Shown here in pieces: positions 7,692 to 30,237 of a stretch of 64,000 nucleotides of DNA (its first letter is position 1; each line of letters begins with the position of its first letter). The stretch comes from Candidatus Daviesbacteria bacterium RIFCSPHIGHO2_02_FULL_43_12. Lineage in GTDB: Bacteria; Patescibacteriota; Microgenomatia; Daviesbacterales; UBA10151. The notes under the pieces were generated by a model that ran no database searches, was not told where the DNA came from, and was given only the letters and a program-made list of their open reading frames with translations. Location of the stretch: positions 3,684 to 67,683 of the forward strand of contig MFDD01000014.1 in NCBI GenBank assembly GCA_001776775.1. Direction: 5' to 3'. Position numbers and translations under genes: made by a program.

Positions 7692-7759
7692 ATTTGTACT
7701 GTATCATGGATCAGGGGTCAGGAGTCAAGCTTGATACACTTGAATATACTTTTATCCAA

Positions 7760-7875
7760 TTGACGACTAAATCAGTTTACTGATATAAAAGAGAGGCTTA
7801 AATTTCCGTTGGGATAAAGCACTACTTACTGCAAGGTGAGTTTACAAGAAACCCCGATACGTTCGGGGTTTTTTG
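7760..7875 (+). promoter_or_regulatory. tgt leader: sigma70-like promoter plus short transcript ending in an intrinsic terminator 12 nt before the tgt ATG
   Basis: Promoter TTGACG(7760-7765)-17-ATATAA(7783-7788). Hairpin AACCCCGatacgtTCGGGGTT (7850-7870) followed by TTTT. No leader ORF found. Confidence 0.45.
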
Positions 7876-7885
7876 TTTACAAATT

Positions 7886-8944
7886 ATGCTAAAAACCTTA
7901 AAGACCAATCATGGAGATATTTCACTCCCAACTTTTTTTCCGGACGCTACTCGAGGTGTGGTCAAAGGAGGACTGGATACCGTTGACCTGAGCAATACTA
8001 AGGTCGAAGGGATTGTGATTAATACCTTACATCTTCGTGGTGCCATCAGGGAGCAATTTAATTGTCACCTCTTAATGAATTGGACTAAACCGATCATTAC
8101 GGACTCGGGTGGGTTTCAGGTCATGTCCCTTATTCATCATCACCCTAAGTTAGGCAAGCTGACCGATAATGAGGCAATTTTTATTGATGCAAGCGGGCAG
8201 AAAATAATCTTTACTCCGGAAGCTTCCATCCAGCTTCAGCTTAAATTAGGAGCCGATATTCTAATTTGCCTGGATGACTGTACCGACCCTGAATCTCCCT
8301 TAAGTCTGCAAGAAAAATCAGTTGAGCGGACAATTAACTGGGCCAGGCGATGCAAAATAGAGTTCGATAAACTTACTAGTCAAAAAAATGCCCGACCTCT
8401 TCTCTTTGCCGTTGTCCAGGGAGGAAAAGATCGGTCACTTCGGAAAAAATGTGCTCGGGCTTTAGTTGAGCTGAATTTTGATGGATATTGCTTTGGTGGC
8501 AGACCGCTGGATGGAGAAAATAAGTTTCTTAAAAGTATTCTCCAATTCACGGCCTCTTTATTACCAAATGACAAACCAAAATATGCCATGGGAGTTGGTA
8601 CTCCTCAGAATATCGTCGACTGTTTTAAAATGGGCTATAACATGTTTGACTGTGTTATCCCTACTCGGGAAGCCCGGCATAAGAAGCTCTATATCTTTAA
8701 CAAACCGCTAGAGCAAATAGATATCCTAAACCAAGAGTTTTATAGCTCGATCTATCTGCAACAAAGTCGCTTTCGAGATAATCTGCAGCCTATTTCACCC
8801 TTTTGCGACTGTTTAACTTGCCAAAATTATTCACTCGGTTATCTATATCATCTCTTTAAAATTAAGGATATCTTAGCCCTCCGACTCGCGAGTATTCATA
8901 ACCTACGTTTTTATACTATGCTGATGGAGAAACTCACCAGGTAA
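7886..8944 (+). CDS. tgt: queuine tRNA-ribosyltransferase (tRNA-guanine transglycosylase)
   Basis: Contains the LPTFFPDAT and ITDSGGFQVMSL motifs and the zinc site CDCLTCQNYSLGYLYHL. Confidence 0.85.
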   Translation: MLKTLKTNHGDISLPTFFPDATRGVVKGGLDTVDLSNTKVEGIVINTLHLRGAIREQFNCHLLMNWTKPIITDSGGFQVMSLIHHHPKLGKLTDNEAIFIDASGQKIIFTPEASIQLQLKLGADILICLDDCTDPESPLSLQEKSVERTINWARRCKIEFDKLTSQKNARPLLFAVVQGGKDRSLRKKCARALVELNFDGYCFGGRPLDGENKFLKSILQFTASLLPNDKPKYAMGVGTPQNIVDCFKMGYNMFDCVIPTREARHKKLYIFNKPLEQIDILNQEFYSSIYLQQSRFRDNLQPISPFCDCLTCQNYSLGYLYHLFKIKDILALRLASIHNLRFYTMLMEKLTR

Positions 8945-22886: not shown

Positions 22887-23813
22887 TTATTTTGGATTAA
22901 CTTTCGTTACCCAATCCGAGTATTTTTCCAATTCACCGTGTACCAATTTATAAAATAGATCTTTTAATTTTGTCCCTACTTCTCTACTCTCACCCAAAGG
23001 CCGATGGTCAATCTCGGCAATGGGAGTTACTTCTGCGGCAGTGCCAGTCAAAAAAGCTTCATCAGCACTATATATTTCAGAGCGGTCTATGCTTCTTTCT
23101 ATAGCCTGTAGCCCCAGCTCTTTGGTGCAAAGCTTAATCACCGTATCCCTGGTTATACCGACTAAAGTATCGTCTGAGACGGGAGGTGTAATAACCACGC
23201 CATCTTTAATCATAAAAATATTTGATGAGCTACTTTCCACAACATGTCCTCTGTCGTCTAGTACCAGCGCGTCATCATATCCATTTAGCTGAGCTTCTGT
23301 TTTTGTTAAACAGGTATTAATGTAAGCTCCTGTAATTTTACCTCGAGGTGGTATAGCATTATCCGATACTCTTCTCCATGAGCTAATACCCAATCTTACC
23401 CCTTTTTCAGAGTCCAAATACTTACCCATCGGGACATTATACATAATGATACTATCTTGCAGAGTTGGTAGTTTAAAGTTGCCAACAGCCGGGTCGGATT
23501 TGAAAGCTAGGGGTCGAACATACATATCTGTTTCGGTGAAATTTCTTTGCAATAGTTCAACTACAAAACCGCACATCTCATCTACTGTATAGGGAATATC
23601 AATAAAAACAATTTTGGCTGATTGTTTCATTCTTTTAAAATGATCTTCCAGCCGAAAGGCGAAAAAGCACTTATCTTTCTCGCTATAATAAGCTCTAATC
23701 CCTTCAAAAACGCCCGTTCCATAATGCAGGGCATGCGCAGTTACCGGAATAACCGCTTTGGCTTCTGGTACAAATTTTCCATTTACAAAAAAGGTCCTAG
23801 TCATGTTTTGCAC
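22887..23813 (-). CDS. ilvE: class IV (branched-chain / D-amino acid) PLP aminotransferase
   Basis: Length and N-terminal FVNGKFVPEAKAVIP...GTGVFEGIRAY are typical of the BCAT/DAAT fold IV. Confidence 0.7.
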   Translation of the reverse strand: MQNMTRTFFVNGKFVPEAKAVIPVTAHALHYGTGVFEGIRAYYSEKDKCFFAFRLEDHFKRMKQSAKIVFIDIPYTVDEMCGFVVELLQRNFTETDMYVRPLAFKSDPAVGNFKLPTLQDSIIMYNVPMGKYLDSEKGVRLGISSWRRVSDNAIPPRGKITGAYINTCLTKTEAQLNGYDDALVLDDRGHVVESSSSNIFMIKDGVVITPPVSDDTLVGITRDTVIKLCTKELGLQAIERSIDRSEIYSADEAFLTGTAAEVTPIAEIDHRPLGESREVGTKLKDLFYKLVHGELEKYSDWVTKVNPK

Positions 23814-24078
23814 CCTCCTGTTCCTCTATTGTATAAGCAATACTAAAAAAAGTCATCCAGATCTTTGCAATAATCTCTTTGGTTAAGCCAAGGGCTTTTC
23901 CTTGGACAGCCAAGCTATCTATTCTTTCCTGCTCGCGAGCTGGATCTTTAATCGGTTTACCTACCAACTTTTTATATTCCCCAACTTTTTTCACCACTTC
24001 AATCCTTTGACTAATTAAGTCTAATAATTTGGCGTCTATTTGATCAATCGCTTTTCTCAGTTGATTTAAGTCTTCCAT
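23797..24078 (-). CDS. chorismate mutase (AroQ class)
   Basis: 93 aa with LRKAIDQIDAKLLDLISQRIEVVKKVGEYK, an AroQ-type helix-bundle signature. Confidence 0.7.
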   Translation of the reverse strand: MEDLNQLRKAIDQIDAKLLDLISQRIEVVKKVGEYKKLVGKPIKDPAREQERIDSLAVQGKALGLTKEIIAKIWMTFFSIAYTIEEQEGAKHD

Positions 24079-24833
24079 TAAATCCCTCTTAGTGCAGTTA
24101 CTAAACCTGCATCTGGATTTGTAGTATATCTTGCTTGAAAGTTTAGAGCAAGATAATCCTGCTCAGAAGGCGGGAGCTGCACTCCTACAGCTCGGAATCT
24201 TTCTATACCTCTACCAAAGTTTGGATTAAGCATCACTCCCCTCCTTGTGAGCTCAGTCACACCCCTCCATGAGTCATTTAAAAAGCTTAACCCTGATCGC
24301 AGAATCTGACCATAAGCTACTACCTTGTATGCGCCTTGTTCAGTCTGTTGTGCCAAAAAAATATCCACTCCGGTGATTTTAGTCAGCCCATCAGAAAGAG
24401 GCTTATTCGTTGGAACATATAAGGCCTCCAATGCTCTAAGTAGTCCTCTAGTTGGTTCGGTTGTTGCAGTCAGGGCCTGTCTAACTTTTGAATGCCTTAA
24501 AGTATGTTCTCCTAGTTGGCTTAGATGAGCTATGGCATCACTTTGCCCTTCCAAAGCTCGGGTCACTAAACTATCTAAGAATCCTGTTAGGATTAACTGA
24601 TTTTCCGGAGAGCACTGAAACCCAACACAGGCTGCTGGTTGACCTTTTCCATGAACGGTACATATAGCTCCCTCCCTTTCCATTTTCAACAAAGGACATG
24701 CTACATTTGCTGATTTATCTATCTCGTAGATCGTTAATAATTTGCAACAAAGTCCACAGTCGCAATCTCCCCCATGAATTGTTTGGCTTGATCTTTCTTG
24801 TGCAGCGCTATTTAACATTTTATACTCCTCCAA
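24078..24833 (-). CDS. hypothetical protein with N-terminal CxCxxCC metal-binding (YkgJ/UPF0153-like) domain
   Basis: GGDCDCGLCCK...CPLL...CTVHG...CVGFQC cysteine pattern; the rest is unrecognised. Confidence 0.4.
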   Translation of the reverse strand: MEEYKMLNSAAQERSSQTIHGGDCDCGLCCKLLTIYEIDKSANVACPLLKMEREGAICTVHGKGQPAACVGFQCSPENQLILTGFLDSLVTRALEGQSDAIAHLSQLGEHTLRHSKVRQALTATTEPTRGLLRALEALYVPTNKPLSDGLTKITGVDIFLAQQTEQGAYKVVAYGQILRSGLSFLNDSWRGVTELTRRGVMLNPNFGRGIERFRAVGVQLPPSEQDYLALNFQARYTTNPDAGLVTALRGI

Positions 24834-26451
24834 TCACTTTGATTACTGGACAATATTGTTTAAGAATATTTAGTGCTTGATCCATCCGTTCATCGTTAGT
24901 AGAAACTTCTACTTCAATGAAGAAGTGGTAATCCCAAACTTTTTCTCTGCTCGGCCGGGATTCAATTTTAGATAAATTAATATTGCTGCTGGCAAAAACA
25001 TTGAGAATATCTCGTAAAATACCTACCCTATTAAATACTGTTAAAAAAAGCAGTGTCCGGGAAGTGGGGATAGATAATTTATTAATATCCTTGGAGATAA
25101 CATAAAACTTTGTAACGTTACTTTTATTATCCTCAATACCTTTTCGCAAAACAGGAATATTATTTAACTTGGCAGCAAGTAGTGGACTTATAAAGGCTAC
25201 GCCTAGCTCATTTCTGTGCTCTTTGATACTAGAAACAGTACTAGAGGCAGTCTCCATGTTGACATTTGGTAAATGTTCCCTGAGCCAGTTTCTACATTGA
25301 GCCAAAGCCTGGGGATGAGAATATACTTTAGTAATATTTTTTAGAGATTTTTCTTCGGAAAGTAAGTTTTGTTGAATCGGTAAGTTCAGCGAACCATTTG
25401 TTCTCATATCAAAATCTATCAAAAAGTCCAGCGTTTCTCTGACGGTTCCTTCGGTGGAATTCTCTGCCGGAACTATTCCAAAATCGGCTTGTAAACTTTT
25501 GACTGCTTCAAAGATTTTTAAGAAATTCTCACAAGGGAGAAGCTGGCTCTCTTTGGCAACAGTTAAGGAAATCTGATGAGAGAATGTTCCCTGGGGACCA
25601 AGGTAAGCTATTTTTCCTTTGAGTTTCTGGGGTAGGTCTTTTTGTTTTATGCTTGTCGCTTGTTGCTTGTTGCTTGTTCCTTTAGGAGTCGAGTCGATAC
25701 TCCTATGAATTTTTTCAATTAATTTATGAAGTTTTTCTCTATCACCATTTTTTAGTTCCTGAAGAAACTCTTGCTGAGTTTTGATGAAATCATTTAGTAC
25801 AGATAGCCCTTCACTATTTCCCAATTGAATTTCTGTCAATAGCTCTGGTGGTTGCGAAATTACTCGACTAAGGGTAGCCATTTGCGCGAGGAAAGGTGGG
25901 GTAGAAACTTTTCCCCCCAAGTCTATTTTATTTTTCAGTAAAACCTTGGCTAAGTTTAGATTTACAAAATGAGTTAGATTTTGCAGGTGAGCCATATATA
26001 GATCATGACTTTTTGACGACATTTCAATAATTTCGGCTCCAGCATTTTTAAGCACCACTTTAAGTTTGTCCAGTAGAGTGCTTTTTTTAATAACACTTAA
26101 AACAACTTTTTGGTTTTGGATGGACGATACTGTTGGACCAAAAAGTAAATGTAAACCTGCTGCGGGTTGGGGTATTTGCGATAGGGTTTTTGCGACTGCC
26201 TGTTGAACAGAAGAAAGATCAACAATTAAAGTATTTCTTTTAGCTCTTTTAGAAATATCCAAAATTACATCTTTGGCTTTGGAAATAGGGACCGAGACAA
26301 AAATAATCTCACTAGATTTTAGAGTACTATCTTCAACACCTTTAGAACCACTGACACTAACCAAAACCCTTTGGCTTTCTAAAAAGTTTCTTAGCCAATT
26401 CCCCATCTGTCCAGTCCCTCCAATAATATGTACTTTTAGATTTCTATTCAT
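24820..26451 (-). CDS. fusion protein: prephenate dehydrogenase (TyrA) N-terminal + prephenate dehydratase (PheA PDT domain) + ACT domain
   Basis: N-terminal Rossmann motif IIGGTGQMG and SHDLYMAHLQNLTHF (TyrA). C-terminal YLGPQGTFSHQ...ENSTEG...ESRPSR (PDT with ESRP motif) plus ACT. Confidence 0.7.
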   Translation of the reverse strand: MNRNLKVHIIGGTGQMGNWLRNFLESQRVLVSVSGSKGVEDSTLKSSEIIFVSVPISKAKDVILDISKRAKRNTLIVDLSSVQQAVAKTLSQIPQPAAGLHLLFGPTVSSIQNQKVVLSVIKKSTLLDKLKVVLKNAGAEIIEMSSKSHDLYMAHLQNLTHFVNLNLAKVLLKNKIDLGGKVSTPPFLAQMATLSRVISQPPELLTEIQLGNSEGLSVLNDFIKTQQEFLQELKNGDREKLHKLIEKIHRSIDSTPKGTSNKQQATSIKQKDLPQKLKGKIAYLGPQGTFSHQISLTVAKESQLLPCENFLKIFEAVKSLQADFGIVPAENSTEGTVRETLDFLIDFDMRTNGSLNLPIQQNLLSEEKSLKNITKVYSHPQALAQCRNWLREHLPNVNMETASSTVSSIKEHRNELGVAFISPLLAAKLNNIPVLRKGIEDNKSNVTKFYVISKDINKLSIPTSRTLLFLTVFNRVGILRDILNVFASSNINLSKIESRPSREKVWDYHFFIEVEVSTNDERMDQALNILKQYCPVIKVIGGV

Positions 26452-26939
26452 TTTATTCTTTCTCGGCTAGCTCCTATTCCTCTTGAAAACCTGCTACATC
26501 TAACTTCTAAAAGATTGCTTTTATTTATCCTAAAGGATCCTCTTCTGGCACTGGGATCTATCGGTACCAAATAATCATGTCCATGCGGAGTATTCCCTTC
26601 TTCTTGTCCGAAGAGTGTTAACGCTTCTTGAACAGCTCTCTTTGCATCGCTGATCTGTTTTGCTAATGGGACATCTGCTGTATTCTGTATTAAAGGTGCT
26701 AATGGATCCATTTGAACAAGAGCAAAATATTGTCCATCTATTTTCATGATCCTTACACCTATCACTAAATCAGACGGAAGTCTCATTAGTCTTCCTGACC
26801 CATGGTAGCCTATCGGATCTCCAACTCGAAGACATTGCGCCGGAGCAAGATCTTTAAGAAATTGAAAGACAGATAATTTTTCACCCGTCCTTTTAGATGC
26901 TTTTCCTTCTCTGACTGTTCTATGAATTAAAATTTCCAT
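26448..26939 (-). CDS. hypothetical protein (first gene of the Phe/Tyr operon)
   Basis: ORF only. ATGA overlap with the downstream TyrA-PheA gene. Confidence 0.4.
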   Translation of the reverse strand: MEILIHRTVREGKASKRTGEKLSVFQFLKDLAPAQCLRVGDPIGYHGSGRLMRLPSDLVIGVRIMKIDGQYFALVQMDPLAPLIQNTADVPLAKQISDAKRAVQEALTLFGQEEGNTPHGHDYLVPIDPSARRGSFRINKSNLLEVRCSRFSRGIGASRERIK

Positions 26940-26950
26940 ATTTTTCCAAT

Positions 26951-26972
26951 AAAAAACCCCGCATCTGCGGGG
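26951..26972 (-). terminator. intrinsic terminator of the aromatic leader (attenuator), 9 nt upstream of the operon ATG
   Basis: Minus strand reads CCCCGCagatGCGGGG followed by TTTTTT. Confidence 0.65.
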
Positions 26973-27001
26973 CCTCTTTGAGTCTTGGTCTTTTTAAAAG
27001 A

Positions 27002-27073
27002 CTACGACAGATGCCCCTCCTTTCGGAAGTTAAAGTTAAAGTAAAACCAAAAATTATTTACAATCTGTTTCAT
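27002..27073 (-). CDS. leader peptide MKQIVNNFWFYFNFNFRKEGHLS (aromatic-codon-rich attenuator peptide)
   Basis: 23-aa ORF between a canonical promoter and an intrinsic terminator. Seven of nine consecutive codons are Phe/Trp/Tyr. Confidence 0.55.
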   Translation of the reverse strand: MKQIVNNFWFYFNFNFRKEGHLS

Positions 27074-27101
27074 AACTAAAGTGTAGCTTAGCAAATAAAG
27101 G

Positions 27102-27129
27102 ATTATATGTCAAATAATACAGCATTCAA
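27102..27129 (-). promoter_or_regulatory. sigma70-like promoter TTGAAT-16-TATAAT driving the aromatic leader
   Basis: Reverse complement of 27124-27129 is TTGAAT and of 27102-27107 is TATAAT. Spacer is 16 nt. Confidence 0.55.
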
Positions 27130-27539: not shown

Positions 27540-27568
27540 TTGACAAATTTAATCGCTTTGCTTAAAAT
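27540..27568 (+). promoter_or_regulatory. sigma70-like promoter TTGACA-17-TAAAAT immediately after ridA
   Basis: TTGACA at 27540-27545 and TAAAAT at 27563-27568. Confidence 0.55.
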
Positions 27569-27575
27569 ACATTTT

Positions 27576-27650
27576 ATGTTTAGAAAGATTTTAAATCTTA
27601 ACCTCATTATAGAGCTCCTTAGCAGGAGCAAATCAGGGAGGTTTGTTTAA
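27576..27650 (+). CDS. leader peptide MFRKILNLNLIIELLSRSKSGRFV (Leu/Ile-codon-rich attenuator peptide)
   Basis: 24-aa ORF whose stop codon lies inside the antiterminator 5' strand. Codons run ILNLNLIIELL. Confidence 0.45.
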   Translation: MFRKILNLNLIIELLSRSKSGRFV

Positions 27651-27681
27651 GTATTTTTAAAAATACTTAAGAAAGGAATAA

Positions 27682-27704
27682 CCTCCCACTCGGGAGGTTT
27701 TTTT
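27682..27704 (+). terminator. intrinsic terminator of the Leu/Ile-type leader, 8 nt upstream of the downstream ATG
   Basis: CCTCCCactcGGGAGG followed by TTTTTTT. The 5' strand is shared with the alternative pairing GGGAGGTT(27636-27643)/AACCTCCC(27680-27687). Confidence 0.65.
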
Positions 27705-27712
27705 ATACCAAA

Positions 27713-29296
27713 ATGACAGCAATTATAAACGAGCGACAGGGTGCAAGACCCAGCACTCCCCAACAAAGAGCTGCAACGGTTTTTCTGAGGGATAGATTCA
27801 ATGCCTTTGATGAGAGATGGCTTGTTGGACACAAAGGGGACCATGCTTCTAACCTGCATGACCTGGGAATCATTGGTCAGAGAGTTCATGTTGCCCATGT
27901 ACATAGTACTCTTGGTGTTGATGCAGATCGGACTTACAAACCGCCAGAAGAAACCTCTGATTCCTATGAGGGACTCCTGACAGGAGCTAATCCCGGATTG
28001 TCCGGAGAGGTAAGCAGAGTAAGAGCTGCACAAATGAGGGTTGTAGTTCTAATGCCTTTTCCCAACTCCGACTTTGAGGGTATGATTGCAAGAGCAAAGG
28101 CAGGAAGATATTTCGTTTCAACAGCGCCGATAGAAAGTTTCGAAACTTTTGAACCAATCGAGAACAAGATATCCTTTGCCAGAATACTTCAGGCAGCTTT
28201 ACAAGGAACTCCTCATACGAGAAATCTAATTCCCTGGACCATACATCAACCTCATTGGGGATTAGATGACGTTAGGCGGAATATGGGAGTAGACCCAGGG
28301 AGTGCAATTTTCTTTCAAAAAGCTATCTCAGGTGGAGGAGATGGGACAGCAAGGGTGAATGATCGATCCAACTTTAATGAACTTTTAAGTAACCCCTCTT
28401 GGATGCAGGCAGCTCGACGAGGGAAACTAAAGGCCTCAATGGCAGTAGAAGGTGCTTATCCAGCAAATGGAACCGGATGTATCGTACCTACCCCGGATGG
28501 CGGTTGCAAAGTTTTGGTTGATCCATTATCTCATAAGCCTGTTGGGTTAGAGAGTGTTGGAGCAAAACCAGGTAGCGGAGCCGGTAATGACTGGGGTACG
28601 CCTTTCCCTAGAGCTGTTACCGATCAATATATTGCAATGGTTTCTCGTCTAGGAAAGTATTTTTATACTACTTTTGGCTACACTGGTATTTTTGGTCCAG
28701 ATGGATTAGTTGGAGCAGATTCAACCTATCGTATGACGGAAAGTAACTCCAGATGGCAAGGTACTACTCCATATCAAACTCAAAATGCTTTGATGAATGG
28801 ACGTTTGCCGATCGAGCTGATACATTACATGGTTAAACTTTCAGTAAATGACTCTCACTTACTTGGACAAGTCAATGATATCGTTGGAGATGCAGACTCT
28901 TATAATCAAAGAGCCTTCACAGAAAGAGGAGGGTTTTATATTAAAGTTGGAGGGCCTAAAACCAAGAAGGAAGTTAGGGAGGACTTAAATGGACCATGGC
29001 GGTGGGATGGAGATCGGTTACATAGACTAAAAAGAGATGGATATTTAACACCTATGCGAATTTATACGAGAGATTACGCAGGAGCTCAAGACCTAACTAA
29101 AGATGATAAAACCGTCTGGATTAAGGCACCTAAGGTAGGCGAGGTTGTAGGAGGAGGATTAGTGGCTGTCGGATACATAACAGGTAGCGATATAAATGTC
29201 TTTGATGCAAATAAGCCAGAGGTTACTTCGGACGGGCATAAGTTATATACTCAAATGAACCAGTTGATGTATAGCCAACGGAGTTCATGGAAATAA
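27713..29296 (+). CDS. hypothetical 527-aa protein, no recognisable family
   Basis: Long ORF whose GC content and codon usage look somewhat higher than neighbouring genes. No signal peptide. Overlaps the downstream AstE/AspA-like gene by 10 nt. Confidence 0.5.
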   Translation: MTAIINERQGARPSTPQQRAATVFLRDRFNAFDERWLVGHKGDHASNLHDLGIIGQRVHVAHVHSTLGVDADRTYKPPEETSDSYEGLLTGANPGLSGEVSRVRAAQMRVVVLMPFPNSDFEGMIARAKAGRYFVSTAPIESFETFEPIENKISFARILQAALQGTPHTRNLIPWTIHQPHWGLDDVRRNMGVDPGSAIFFQKAISGGGDGTARVNDRSNFNELLSNPSWMQAARRGKLKASMAVEGAYPANGTGCIVPTPDGGCKVLVDPLSHKPVGLESVGAKPGSGAGNDWGTPFPRAVTDQYIAMVSRLGKYFYTTFGYTGIFGPDGLVGADSTYRMTESNSRWQGTTPYQTQNALMNGRLPIELIHYMVKLSVNDSHLLGQVNDIVGDADSYNQRAFTERGGFYIKVGGPKTKKEVREDLNGPWRWDGDRLHRLKRDGYLTPMRIYTRDYAGAQDLTKDDKTVWIKAPKVGEVVGGGLVAVGYITGSDINVFDANKPEVTSDGHKLYTQMNQLMYSQRSSWK

Positions 29297-30237
29297 CAGA
29301 GATAAAAACCAACATTGGAAATACAGCCTCAGGGACACCTCTGCTAATCAACGGCTACCATCTTAAGGGTTCTCATCCCGGGAAAAAGATATATATACAA
29401 GGAGGTATTCATGGAGGTGAAGTTACTATTTGGATTTTTCAAGAATTATTTAAATACTTTTCTGAACATGAGATCCAGGGTGAGGTTTTTTTAATCCCCG
29501 TAGCTAACCCTGTTGCTTGGAATCAGCGTATTTACTTTAGTACTTTAGGTAAATTTGATTTCTATATGGGTAAAGACTGGAATCGAAACTTTCCAGGAAA
29601 TGAAGATGGCACTCTTGGAGAAAGGATTGCTAAAAAACTTTTTGATATTGCTTCAAGAGCAGATTTTATTATCGATCTTCATACATCGAGAGATAGTTTC
29701 CCATTTGCAATATTATCTTCTAAAAATGATCTCGCATACGCGCAGAAGATTGGACTTGAATATAACCTTCTATTAGATCTCGACGATCCTAAGTTTAGTA
29801 GCTATAGAAGTACACTAACAGGTCAGGGAAGCTTATCAAATGCTCCTAGTATTGCCATAGAGTGCGGGAGGCATGACTCCTATAATGAAGAATACTGCAA
29901 AGAAGTTACCAACGGTTTACTTCGCTTAATGAGCCACCTCGGCATTATCAATGACAAAAAGATTCCTCCTACAACTAAAAAGGTAAAATATTATTCAAGG
30001 TTAAAAACCTATAGATCCCCCAATGGTGGGTTCATAAAATTCAATAAGCATGCGGGAGATGAATACAAGAAAGGGGAAATTTTATTTGAGCTTATTAACC
30101 CGTCTGATCTAGGTTCTGCAACTGTAGTGTTCGCCGAAGAAGATGGAATTCTGCAAAAGAAGTCCCCAACTTTTATCTATATGCCAGGTGATGACGTCCT
30201 TGAAGTATTACCGCTTACTAATATAAAGTTCATATAA
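29287..30237 (+). CDS. succinylglutamate desuccinylase/aspartoacylase (AstE/AspA) family zinc hydrolase (M14-like)
   Basis: N-terminal zinc-site GGIHGGE (H-x-x-E), second His in IDLHTS, and ECGRHDS; about 316 aa. Confidence 0.6.
   Translation: MEITEIKTNIGNTASGTPLLINGYHLKGSHPGKKIYIQGGIHGGEVTIWIFQELFKYFSEHEIQGEVFLIPVANPVAWNQRIYFSTLGKFDFYMGKDWNRNFPGNEDGTLGERIAKKLFDIASRADFIIDLHTSRDSFPFAILSSKNDLAYAQKIGLEYNLLLDLDDPKFSSYRSTLTGQGSLSNAPSIAIECGRHDSYNEEYCKEVTNGLLRLMSHLGIINDKKIPPTTKKVKYYSRLKTYRSPNGGFIKFNKHAGDEYKKGEILFELINPSDLGSATVVFAEEDGILQKKSPTFIYMPGDDVLEVLPLTNIKFI

What the first reader, a model, noticed from the sequence alone, without database searches (positions are those of the whole stretch)
27713..30237. 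Unrecognisable 527-aa protein co-transcribed with an AstE/AspA-family zinc hydrolase under amino-acid-type attenuation control
The 527-aa ORF matches no family I can recognise by motif. It has noticeably higher GC and different codon usage than its flanks, has no signal peptide, and overlaps by 10 nt the gene for an M14-like AstE/AspA deacylase/carboxypeptidase (HGGE...DLHT zinc site). The control by a Leu/Ile-rich leader peptide is itself an inference. It suggests a starvation-induced function, for example release of amino acids from N-acyl or peptide substrates. The pair is a candidate novel two-gene system. I considered distant AstB (succinylarginine dihydrolase) similarity and found it unconvincing.
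Basis: inference. Interest (0 to 1): 0.7.

Follow-up and report, generated by a model that had tools for sequence, protein, structure and literature searches.

The report
Isoleucine-attenuated ATP-grasp ligase / zinc-hydrolase operon
The "unrecognisable" protein is a very divergent ATP-grasp ligase that is always paired with an AstE/AspA-type zinc hydrolase, and in this candidate-phyla-radiation bacterium the pair is switched on by a classical leader-peptide attenuator rich in isoleucine and leucine codons, which points to an uncharacterised enzyme pair tied to hydrophobic amino-acid supply.

Summary
The window comes from Candidatus Daviesbacteria. It carries a 527-aa ORF (27713-29296) that overlaps a 316-aa AstE/AspA-family gene (29287-30237) by 10 nt.

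The AstE partner is adjacent in 11 distinct loci. A distant alphaproteobacterial sister module has two ATP-grasp paralogues flanking one AstE.

Seven loci (eight leaders, one locus with two in tandem) share a promoter, a 15-29-codon ORF enriched in Ile (16.7% against 7.7%) and Leu, and a stop codon next to an antiterminator arm. That arm co-varies with the terminator, which lies just before the ATP-grasp start.

The same window holds a Phe-rich leader of identical design upstream of tyrA/pheA. This serves as an internal positive control.

The substrate is unknown. The composition anomaly does not stand up. I rate this a new variant of known kinds, of moderate to high interest.

The parts
27540..27568 (+). 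sigma-70-type promoter, TTGACA-17 nt-TAAAAT (11 of 12 matches). It lies downstream of the ridA stop (27532) and upstream of the leader.
   Evidence: Equivalent promoters sit upstream of the leaders in L001, L002, L036 and L037.
27576..27650 (+). leader ORF MFRKILNLNLIIELLSRSKSGRFV*. The ATG is 7 nt after the -10 box, so the transcript is probably leaderless or nearly so.
   Evidence: Homologous leader ORFs are found in 6 other loci. Ile is enriched with P 4e-5.
27600..27605 (+). region 1 (AACCUC), inside the leader ORF. It pairs with region 2 when no ribosome is present.
   Evidence: MFE structures.
27606..27611 (+). tandem Ile codons AUU AUA, the proposed stalling site
   Evidence: The ATTAT motif is in frame 0 in every leader that has it.
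27636..27643 (+). region 2 (GGGAGGUU), the antiterminator 5' arm. It is identical to region 4 and ends 6 nt before the end of the leader stop codon.
27680..27704 (+). intrinsic terminator: region 3 AACCUCCC, loop ACUC, region 4 GGGAGGUU, then U7. It ends 9 nt before the ATP-grasp ATG. The GGAGG of region 4 is also the only Shine-Dalgarno-like sequence for that ATG.
27713..29296 (+). 527-aa divergent ATP-grasp ligase. It has a pre-ATP-grasp domain (about residues 30-150), a central domain with the Gly-rich loop SGGGDGT, and a C domain with D330/E343/N345/R347.
29280..29283 (+). GGAG Shine-Dalgarno for the AstE-like gene, inside the 3' end of the ATP-grasp gene (translational coupling)
29287..30237 (+). 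316-aa AstE/AspA-family zinc amidohydrolase. Zn ligands are H42, E45 and H132. The catalytic residue is E192. N99-R100 form the carboxylate clamp.

Best explanation
Positions 27540-30237 form one regulated operon. It runs promoter, leader ORF, attenuator, ATP-grasp ligase, AstE/AspA-type zinc amidohydrolase.

Regulation (sequence-shown plus comparative inference):
- Transcription starts at or just before the leader ATG.
- With ample Ile/Leu-tRNA, the ribosome runs to the leader stop codon and covers region 2. Regions 3:4 then fold into the terminator and transcription stops 9 nt before the ATP-grasp gene.
- With scarce charged tRNA-Ile (or tRNA-Leu), the ribosome stalls at the tandem Ile codons, about 25 nt upstream of region 2, and masks region 1. 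Region 2 then pairs with region 3 (8 bp), the terminator cannot form, and both enzymes are made.
- The second enzyme is made by translational coupling.

Enzymology (fold and motifs shown; chemistry inferred from the families):
- The ATP-grasp enzyme activates a carboxylate as an acyl-phosphate and joins it to an amine.
- The AstE-like enzyme hydrolyses an N-acyl or peptidyl bond next to a free alpha-carboxylate.

Proposed role (inference, least certain):
- The pair makes and cleaves an amide conjugate of a hydrophobic, branched-chain amino acid.
- It serves supply or mobilisation of Ile/Leu in an organism with little biosynthetic capacity.
- The ligase and the hydrolase probably act on different bonds or substrates, as in VanA/VanX or LysX/LysK, rather than in a futile cycle.

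Sub-confidences:
- ATP-grasp fold: 0.97.
- Active zinc hydrolase of the AstE family: 0.9.
- Functional pairing: 0.9.
- Ribosome-mediated attenuator: 0.85.
- Ile/Leu as the sensed amino acids: 0.7.
- Role in BCAA supply: 0.35.
For: ATP-grasp identity:
- The AF2 model has pLDDT 90.5 and pTM 0.90.
- Foldseek gives E 3e-14 over about 488 columns to biotin carboxylase.
- Family members weakly hit PF02222, PF02655, PF15632 and PF14398.
- Invariant residues are K152, the S206-GG-D-G-T loop, K275, D330, E343, N345 and R347.

Pairing:
- AstE lies immediately downstream in the window and in L001, L002, L006, L022, L023, L036, L037, L038 and L039. It is convergent in L005.
- A 45%-identical AstE in Alphaproteobacteria-labelled MAGs is flanked by two paralogues that hhalign to the family at 98% probability.
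- The longest-contig lengths recorded for members of that alphaproteobacterial sister family match those recorded for AstE homologues.

Attenuator:
- Eight leaders in seven loci share the same order of parts.
- The 2:3 duplex is -9.5 to -16.6 kcal/mol in every leader. Only 0-11 of 500 shuffles do as well (15 of 500 for the Phe leader).
- Region 2 always ends -8 to +14 nt from the leader stop.
- Three sequence classes of region 3 (CCUCCC, CCUCUC, CCCGC) each come with matching changes in both region 2 and region 4.
- Constrained folds of the window leader switch as the model requires.
- L001 and L037 leaders differ by indels in multiples of three, and the ATTAT motif is always in frame.
- L038 carries two complete attenuators in tandem.
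- An automated scan of all loci and the window returns only these leaders and the Phe leader.
- The Phe/Trp/Tyr-rich leader of identical design upstream of tyrA/pheA shows that the organism uses cognate-codon attenuation.
- Ile is 16.7% against 7.7% background (P 4e-5). Leu is 17.2% against 11.1% (P 0.008). Tandem II occurs in 6 of 8 leaders against 10.8% of small ORFs.
Against: - There is no experimental evidence of any kind, and no substrate is identified.
- Ligase and hydrolase in one operon could be a futile cycle if they act on the same bond.
- The attenuator is confined to the closest clade (at least 43% identity). AstE-paired loci L006, L022/L023 and L005 have plain promoters. The regulation is therefore lineage-specific and may not reveal the ancestral function.
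- Part of the Leu (CUN) enrichment may be imposed by the pyrimidine-rich region 1 rather than by sensing. Val is not enriched.
- More distant members of the ATP-grasp family sit next to a GT4 glycosyltransferase, a sugar-phosphate nucleotidyltransferase and a NUDIX enzyme instead of AstE. This fits a glycoconjugate role better than amino-acid salvage.
- The leader ORFs have no Shine-Dalgarno. Their translation rests on presumed leaderless initiation.
- Rfam has no match above threshold. The 35-bit Phe_leader hit is below the 55-bit cut-off.
Confidence: 0.55

Rival explanations
1. Cell-envelope or glycoconjugate amidoligase. The ATP-grasp enzyme attaches an amino acid or amine to a sugar acid, or to a sugar-linked carboxylate, of a glycan or small glycoside. 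The AstE-like enzyme trims or deacylates the same molecule. The Ile/Leu attenuator is then just a lineage-specific general starvation input.
For: - In the Saccharibacteria, Taylorbacteria and related clades, the orthologous ATP-grasp gene overlaps or abuts a GT4 glycosyltransferase. An NTP_transferase and a NUDIX enzyme follow.
- L010 adds a PurD-like ATP-grasp and an arginase-fold hydrolase.
- One distant relative is fused to an inositol monophosphatase.
- One member weakly hits the sugar-transfer-associated ATP-grasp family PF14397.
- There is precedent for ATP-grasp aminoacyl ligases in glycan clusters (PMC4000134).
Against: - The AstE-paired clade has no glycosyltransferase nearby in any of the 11 loci.
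- The GT4-paired and AstE-paired groups are only 27-37% identical, so they may have different substrates.
- AstE/AspA enzymes characteristically need a free alpha-carboxylate of an amino acid.
Confidence: 0.15
2. Protein C-terminal tagging cycle. This would resemble RimK on ribosomal protein S6, or the tubulin tyrosine ligase and carboxypeptidase cycle. The ATP-grasp enzyme adds residues to the C-terminus of a protein and the M14-like AstE enzyme removes them. This would remodel translation or another process during amino-acid starvation.
For: - ATP-grasp plus an M14-clan hydrolase is the composition of the TTL(L)/CCP cycle. RimK operons also carry peptidase partners (own knowledge).
- The large number of invariant surface-type residues is compatible with a macromolecular substrate.
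Against: - No member hits the RimK Pfam model.
- No conserved candidate target gene is nearby.
Confidence: 0.1
3. The short ORFs are not sensors but substrates or products. They would be RiPP-like precursor peptides or small membrane peptides, and the terminator would only set the ratio of peptide to enzyme.
For: - A short ORF followed by an ATP-grasp enzyme and a peptidase is the layout of graspetide clusters.
- Hydrophobic 34-37-aa ORFs also precede the ATP-grasp genes in the distant alphaproteobacterial module.
Against: - The peptides have almost no Asp or Glu (0.5% each) and little Thr (3.2%), Lys (5.4%) or Ser (7.0%) for cross-links.
- They have no conserved termini.
- The antiterminator arm next to the stop codon co-varies with the terminator. 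A simple stoichiometry terminator does not need this.
- The design is identical to the Phe leader upstream of pheA.
Confidence: 0.07
4. The attenuator senses general ribosome stalling, for example by antibiotics, as with ErmCL or ARE-ABCF leaders. It would not sense Ile/Leu supply, and the operon would be a stress or resistance function.
For: - Hydrophobic leaders such as FIIVLL resemble the IFVI stalling motif of ErmCL (own knowledge).
- Any stall upstream of region 2 would give read-through.
Against: - The leader sequences are not conserved as a defined arrest motif. Only the Ile/Leu richness and the tandem Ile are shared.
- The neighbouring Phe leader shows the cognate amino-acid logic.
- ATP-grasp/AstE is not a known resistance pair, and there is no PADLOC hit.
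Confidence: 0.08

Closest known systems
Classical leader-peptide transcription attenuators of amino-acid operons (E. coli ilvGMEDA, leu, thr and pheA leaders)
   Same: - A promoter and a short ORF with clustered codons for the sensed amino acid.
- Mutually exclusive 1:2, 2:3 and 3:4 pairings.
- A Rho-independent terminator just before the first structural gene.
- A stop codon placed so that a terminating ribosome occludes region 2.
   Different: - It is found in a CPR (Daviesbacteria) lineage.
- No Rfam model matches.
- The leader ORF appears leaderless (ATG 7-9 nt after the -10 box) and has no Shine-Dalgarno.
- It controls an uncharacterised ligase/hydrolase pair, not a biosynthetic pathway or a tRNA synthetase.
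- The leaders are very short, 15-29 codons.
ATP-grasp carboxylate-amine ligases of the PurK / PurT / biotin carboxylase / L-amino-acid ligase (BacD-YwfE, BL00235, RizA) / PylC group
   Same: - A Gly-rich loop, the Mg ligands D/E...ExN, and the catalytic Arg.
   Different: - Only 10-16% identity.
- No Pfam or NCBIfam model reaches threshold.
- The family has its own signature motifs: YPANGTGC, DPPSHKP, GNDW and NPRWQGTTPYQT.
- The family is almost confined to CPR bacteria.
- The sister family in uncultured Alphaproteobacteria weakly hits ATPgrasp_YheCD.
AstE/AspA family (succinylglutamate desuccinylase, aspartoacylase, DoeB N-acetyl-DABA deacetylase; nearest solved structures 3FMC and 3LWU, Shewanella structural-genomics proteins of unknown substrate)
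   Same: - PF24827 is matched over its full length.
- It has the HxxE...H zinc site, the catalytic Glu and the NR carboxylate clamp.
   Different: - It scores far below the equivalog cut-offs of DoeB, AspA and AstE: 38, 24 and 15 bits against 403, 180 and 306. It is therefore none of the characterised enzymes.
- It forms a distinct subfamily that travels with the ATP-grasp gene.
Ligase-plus-hydrolase operons (VanA/VanX, cyanophycin synthetase/cyanophycinase, LysX/LysK, glutathionylspermidine synthetase/amidase; mammalian NAAG synthetase RIMKLA/B with aspartoacylase). This entry is from own knowledge.
   Same: An ATP-grasp amide-forming enzyme is encoded with, or works alongside, a hydrolase acting on the same class of amide compounds.
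   Different: No sequence membership in any of these. The substrates here are unknown. The analogy is only one of design.

Membership tests
ATP-grasp superfamily | Three-domain ATP-grasp fold | tested here: met
   [not shown]
ATP-grasp superfamily | Mg/ATP and catalytic residues: acidic residue, ExN, Arg, Gly-rich loop, phosphate-binding Lys | tested here: met
   D330, E343, N345, R347, K152, K275 and the S206-G-G-D-G-T loop are invariant in 18 sequences. Their assignment to catalytic roles is by motif analogy, not by superposition.
ATP-grasp superfamily | Significant match to a curated ATP-grasp sequence model | tested here: inconclusive
   The window protein has no hit. Of 18 family members, 4 hit PF02222 (best E 2.2e-5), 3 hit PF15632 and 2 hit PF02655. 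All are at or below the gathering scores.
RimK family | Match to the RimK ATP-grasp model; poly-alpha-glutamate ligase architecture of about 300 aa | tested here: not met
   [not shown]
Graspetide (RiPP) ATP-grasp ligases | Adjacent precursor peptide with a conserved core containing Asp/Glu plus Thr/Ser/Lys; MdnB/C-like ligase | tested here: not met
   [not shown]
AstE/AspA family (316-aa protein) | PF24827 catalytic domain above the gathering score | tested here: met
   83.5 bits against a cut-off of 25, covering profile positions 1-192 of 192.
AstE/AspA family (316-aa protein) | Zinc ligands HxxE...H and catalytic Glu | tested here: met
   H42, E45, H132 and E192 are invariant in 24 homologues. 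N99 is invariant and R100 is at least 90% conserved.
AstE, AspA or DoeB proper (equivalogs) | Score above the NCBIfam equivalog cut-off | tested here: not met
   38.5 against 402.7 for DoeB, 23.7 against 180 for aspartoacylase, and 14.7 against 305.65 for AstE.
Ribosome-mediated (leader-peptide) transcription attenuator | Promoter, then a short ORF, then a Rho-independent terminator upstream of the regulated gene | tested here: met
   for the window. The same order of parts is found in L001, L002, L036, L037, L038 (twice) and L039.
Ribosome-mediated (leader-peptide) transcription attenuator | Alternative antiterminator (2:3) that competes with the terminator (3:4), positioned relative to the leader stop codon | tested here: met
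   The duplexes are -9.5 to -16.6 kcal/mol. Only 0-15 of 500 shuffles do as well. Region 2 ends -8 to +14 nt from the stop. Regions 2, 3 and 4 co-vary in three sequence classes. Constrained folds behave as required.
Ribosome-mediated (leader-peptide) transcription attenuator | Clustered codons of the sensed amino acid in the leader ORF | tested here: met
   Ile is 16.7% against 7.7% (P 4e-5). Leu is 17.2% against 11.1% (P 0.008). Tandem Ile-Ile occurs in 6 of 8 leaders. ATTAT is always in frame.
Ribosome-mediated (leader-peptide) transcription attenuator | Read-through increases on starvation for the cognate amino acid | not testable with these tools
   This needs reporter or transcript-end experiments.
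AstB (succinylarginine dihydrolase) | Sequence or fold similarity to AstB | tested here: not met
   No AstB model or structure appears among the hits.

The most novel reading that the evidence does not exclude
The ATP-grasp/AstE pair is a previously unknown pathway for acquiring or mobilising hydrophobic amino acids in metabolically reduced bacteria, namely CPR lineages and uncultured, mostly host-associated Alphaproteobacteria.

Each ATP-grasp paralogue would be specific for the amino-acid class written in its own upstream leader ORF. In Daviesbacteria this is Ile/Leu. In the alphaproteobacterial module, Leu/Ile-rich leaders precede paralogue 1 and a Tyr/Phe-rich leader precedes paralogue 2.

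The leader composition would then be a readable code for the substrate specificity of an orphan enzyme family.
Probability: 0.2. Interest if true: 0.8.

Novelty: new variant of a known kind. Interest (0 to 1): 0.58.

Why it matters
1. It gives a fold and a chemistry (ATP-dependent amide ligation) to a protein family that no library recognises. The family has a sister group of more than 140 clusters in uncultured Alphaproteobacteria.
2. It defines a conserved ligase/hydrolase module whose regulation gives a rare functional clue in CPR bacteria, where most genes are unannotated and no genetics exists. The operon is wired to the charging level of tRNA-Ile and tRNA-Leu.
3. It documents classical leader-peptide attenuation in a CPR genome: an Ile/Leu type and a Phe type 600 nt apart, both apparently on leaderless or near-leaderless transcripts. 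I found no report of this in the searchable literature.
4. The prediction is directly testable with two recombinant proteins and a reporter fusion.

Tried and rejected
- Pfam, NCBIfam, PADLOC and PDB-sequence searches of the 527-aa protein found nothing.
- A profile search of PDB sequences gave only noise, apart from a weak PurT hit at E 1.5.
- Rfam on the leader gave a sub-threshold Phe_leader hit (35 against 55 bits) that mainly reflects the terminator. No family reaches the gathering score anywhere in the window except two tRNAs.
- Horizontal transfer or a composition anomaly is rejected.
- The terminator as the ridA terminator is rejected. A strong promoter lies between ridA and the terminator, and the attenuator recurs in loci without ridA.
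- Over-long N-terminus: I suspected the first 107 residues were spurious. The alignment and the model show they are the conserved pre-ATP-grasp domain.
- Iyer et al. 2009 on amidoligases could not be retrieved. Literature searches for ATP-grasp plus desuccinylase or aspartoacylase operons gave nothing specific.
- The N-terminal 470 aa of the 1004-aa fusion P0131 gave no Pfam hit, even with W masked.
- The attenuator is absent from L005, L006, L022 and L023 and from all GT4-type loci.
Full report
1. What is there

The window matches Candidatus Daviesbacteria (CPR/Patescibacteria). The 527-aa product is 100% identical to a hypothetical protein of a RIFCSPHIGHO2_01_FULL_44 bin.

The two ORFs are as described: 27713-29296 and 29287-30237 on the + strand, overlapping by 10 nt. 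A GGAG sits 3 nt before the second ATG, so translational coupling is likely.

The flanking genes are:
- ridA upstream on the same strand, with its own promoter;
- recJ convergent downstream, followed by the gene for the CCA-adding enzyme.

The compositional claim does not hold. GC is 0.439 and GC3 is 0.322, against 0.418 +/- 0.032 and 0.376 +/- 0.049 for 56 ORFs of the window.

2. The 527-aa protein is an ATP-grasp enzyme of an undescribed family

Sequence libraries are silent for this protein. Homologues are few. A word-indexed search of 5.8 billion clusters found 18. An exhaustive profile search of 1.84 billion representatives found 39 at E<1e-30. Genome and metagenome scans found them almost only in CPR bins: Saccharibacteria, Taylorbacteria and Moranbacteria.

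The alignment is conserved from residue 25 or so to the end. I had suspected the N-terminal 107 residues of being a gene-calling artefact, but they are real.

The family's own motifs are ENK, SxGGDGT, YPANGTGC, DPPSHKP, GNDW, GYTGIFGPD and TE(I/V)NPRWQGTTPYQT. The last contains the ExNxR signature of ATP-grasp enzymes. D330, E343, N345, R347, K152 and K275 are invariant. Several members weakly hit ATP-grasp Pfam models.

An AlphaFold2 model built on the alignment is confident, with pLDDT 90.5 and pTM 0.90.
- Foldseek aligns about 488 of 527 columns to biotin carboxylase domains, at E 3e-14 and TM about 0.5.

The whole protein is therefore a pre-ATP-grasp, central and C-domain enzyme with no extra domain. 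By established knowledge of the superfamily, it should form an acyl-phosphate from a carboxylate and ATP and pass the acyl group to an amine or similar nucleophile.

3. The partner and the pairing

The 316-aa protein is a full-length AstE_AspA_cat member. Its zinc site and catalytic Glu are intact and invariant. It falls far below the equivalog thresholds for AstE, AspA and DoeB. Its nearest solved relatives are two Shewanella structural-genomics proteins of unknown substrate.

The pair is conserved. AstE lies directly downstream of the ATP-grasp gene in the window and in L001, L002, L006, L022, L023, L036, L037, L038 and L039. It is convergent and adjacent in the Moranbacteria locus L005.

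The AstE subfamily has 98 cluster hits. I followed one labelled Alphaproteobacteria. It sits between two paralogous proteins of 605 and 584 aa that have no Pfam hit. Both match the CPR family profile at 98% hhalign probability (E 4.5e-15 and 2.8e-13) and keep GVGND and EINDRQQGPT.

That sister family has more than 140 clusters, all from uncultured Alphaproteobacteria-type MAGs, and some weakly hit ATPgrasp_YheCD. Its members share longest-contig lengths with AstE homologues (311621, 55619, 43967, 4170, 3958 and 2816 nt), which is indirect evidence of widespread linkage.

More distant CPR members (27-37% identity) lack AstE. They are followed instead by a GT4 glycosyltransferase, a sugar-phosphate nucleotidyltransferase and a NUDIX enzyme. 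In L010 they are also followed by a PurD-like ATP-grasp and an arginase-fold hydrolase. One member, P0016, stands alone.

4. The attenuator is real

In the window, a near-consensus promoter (27540-27568) lies after the ridA stop. It is followed by:
- a 24-codon ORF (27576-27650);
- region 1, AACCUC (27600-27605);
- tandem Ile codons (27606-27611);
- region 2, GGGAGGUU (27636-27643);
- the leader stop (27648-27650);
- region 3, AACCUCCC, and region 4, GGGAGGUU, with a U7 run (27680-27704).

The gene's ATG is at 27713. The leader folds far better than shuffles, with a z-score of -5.0. Constrained folds behave as the classical model requires. Without a ribosome, 1:2 forms together with the 3:4 terminator. 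With the 5' part masked, as by a ribosome stalled at the Ile codons, the 8-bp 2:3 helix forms before region 4 exists. With region 2 masked, as by a ribosome at the stop codon, only the terminator forms.

The comparative evidence is decisive. The six other loci whose ATP-grasp is at least 43% identical all carry the same arrangement, and L038 carries it twice in tandem. The leader peptides are:
- window: MFRKILNLNLIIELLSRSKSGRFV
- L001: MLQSNSFIIVLLITH
- L002: MNNLNKLTIITLILVFN
- L036: MNQAFLLIALFVLFIGDRAHAGGLTN
- L037: MSNRNSAFIIVLLSHA
- L038, first copy: ...SFIIIVIFIL
- L038, second copy: MNHISIFLRSLPLPQSFIIFIGFILLL
- L039: ...LVLVNLLAIVLIMVATG

Regions 2, 3 and 4 change together between loci:
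- GGGAGG / CCUCCC / GGGAGG
- GAGAGG / CCUCUC / GAGAGG
- GGCGGGG / CCCCGCC / GGCGGGG

The 2:3 duplex is -9.5 to -16.6 kcal/mol in each leader, against -3.7 to -8.5 for shuffles, and 0-11 of 500 shuffles do as well (15 of 500 for the Phe leader). Region 2 always ends within -8 to +14 nt of the leader stop, which is inside the footprint of a terminating ribosome.

Several features argue that the ORF is translated. The L001 and L037 leaders differ by indels in multiples of three. The ATTAT motif is in frame 0 in every leader that has it. Ile is 16.7% against 7.7% in the window's proteins (P 4e-5), and Leu is 17.2% against 11.1% (P 0.008). Val and Phe are not significantly enriched. Ile-Ile occurs in 6 of 8 leaders, against 10.8% of 389 comparable small ORFs.

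A blind scan of about 330 kb of loci plus the window looked for a terminator, an antiterminator, a stop-adjacent small ORF and a downstream gene. It returned only these leaders and one other element.

That other element is a positive control. On the minus strand of the same window there is a promoter, then a leader ORF (27073..27002) MKQIVNNFWFYFNFNFRKEGHLS with five Phe plus Trp and Tyr, and region 2 (GGGGC) at the end of the ORF. A terminator GGCCCCGC-AGAU-GCGGGGUU-U6 (26974..26955) sits directly before a 163-aa ORF. That ORF overlaps a TyrA-PheA fusion carrying PDH, PDT and ACT domains. The organism therefore uses cognate-codon attenuation. This makes Ile/Leu sensing the natural reading of the other leader.

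The leader ATGs lie 7-9 nt after the -10 hexamer in the window, L001, L036 and L037 and have no Shine-Dalgarno. I infer leaderless initiation. This is not shown.

The attenuator is lineage-specific. L006, L005, L022/L023 and all GT4-type loci have plain promoters. In the alphaproteobacterial module there are three homologous leader units. Each has a 34-37-codon hydrophobic ORF whose stop codon lies inside the 5' arm of a -21 kcal/mol hairpin, with no U-run. Two of these units precede paralogue 1 and one precedes paralogue 2. The leaders before paralogue 1 are Leu/Ile-rich and the one before paralogue 2 is Tyr/Phe-rich. I did not analyse this further.

5. How it most likely works, and what remains open

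Shown or well supported:
- a promoter-proximal attenuator that should terminate when the leader is translated to its end and read through when a ribosome stalls at the Ile (or Leu) codons;
- an intact ATP-grasp ligase;
- an intact zinc amidohydrolase;
- tight and ancient gene linkage.

Inferred: the two enzymes handle an amide conjugate involving a hydrophobic amino acid, and expression under Ile/Leu shortage serves supply or mobilisation of these amino acids.

I cannot name the substrate. A ligase and a hydrolase in one operon need not be futile. Known designs include destruction of a competing product (VanA/VanX), attachment to and release from a carrier (LysX/LysK), and synthesis and mobilisation of a reserve (cyanophycin). 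These comparisons rest on my own knowledge.

The GT4/NUDIX context of distant relatives keeps a glycoconjugate role alive. Protein C-terminal tagging and RiPP-like readings are less likely, for the reasons given under the rival explanations.

6. Novelty

The parts belong to known kinds: an ATP-grasp ligase, an AstE-type hydrolase and a leader-peptide attenuator.

Several things appear new. The ATP-grasp family has no curated model. The module is conserved across CPR and uncultured Alphaproteobacteria. The module is placed under Ile/Leu attenuation. Classical attenuators are present in a CPR genome, and a full-text search found no paper combining these terms.

I rate it a new variant of a known kind, with interest 0.58.

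Noticed in passing
window 26949-27129, minus strand: This is a second, Phe-type leader-peptide attenuator. The promoter is TTGAAT-16-TATAAT at 27129..27102. The leader ORF at 27073..27002 encodes MKQIVNNFWFYFNFNFRKEGHLS*. The terminator GGCCCCGCAGATGCGGGGTT plus a T-run lies at 26974..26949. It sits directly upstream of a 163-aa ORF and the overlapping TyrA-PheA fusion.
   Followed up: partly
window 26448-26939 (-) and 24078-24833 (-): Two ORFs (163 aa and 251 aa) without any Pfam hit are co-oriented with, and overlap, the PDH+PDT+ACT fusion in the Phe-attenuated operon. The fusion lacks a chorismate mutase domain, so one of them could supply a missing aromatic-pathway step. A class IV (IlvE-like) aminotransferase follows at 22887-23813.
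   Followed up: no
window 7750-7885, plus strand: A promoter-like TTGACG, a leader of about 70 nt and a strong terminator (AAACCCCGATACGTTCGGGGTTT plus T-run, 7849-7871) lie immediately upstream of tgt (queuine tRNA-ribosyltransferase, 7886-8944). There is no Rfam match, so this is a possible unknown riboswitch or attenuator.
   Followed up: partly
L040 3794-4182 and 6996-7200 (identical in L041 and L042): In the alphaproteobacterial ATP-grasp/AstE/ATP-grasp module there are three homologous leader units. Each has a 34-37-codon hydrophobic ORF whose stop codon lies in the 5' arm of a -21 kcal/mol hairpin, followed by a conserved AUAUUUUAUAAA. The two units before paralogue 1 are Leu/Ile-rich. 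The one before paralogue 2 is Tyr/Phe-rich.
   Followed up: partly
L007, L010, L011, L015 and related loci: In Saccharibacteria, Taylorbacteria and allied bins, the ATP-grasp orthologue is followed by a GT4 glycosyltransferase (often overlapping), an NTP_transferase and a NUDIX hydrolase. L010 adds a PurD-like ATP-grasp and an arginase-family enzyme. This is a distinct conserved cluster of unknown product.
   Followed up: partly
L001 4897-4968 (protein P0002): The database gene model of P0002 starts at a GTG inside the antiterminator and reads through the terminator hairpin. The real start is most likely the ATG at about 4969 (MENRRQ...). This is a gene-calling artefact that hides the attenuator.
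   Followed up: yes
protein P0131 (1004 aa): This is a family member fused to an unknown 470-aa N-terminal region. It is abnormally Trp-rich, with W at positions that are Gly in the family (SAGWDGT against SAGGDGT). It probably comes from a code-25 (UGA = Gly) lineage translated with the wrong table. The N-terminal region gave no Pfam hit.
   Followed up: partly
L039 2800-3627 and L002 4075-4785: Other amidohydrolase-type genes neighbour the pair in single loci. An FGase-like (N-formylglutamate amidohydrolase family) gene lies right after AstE in L039. A class-I GATase / peptidase C26-like gene lies right before the attenuator in L002.
   Followed up: no
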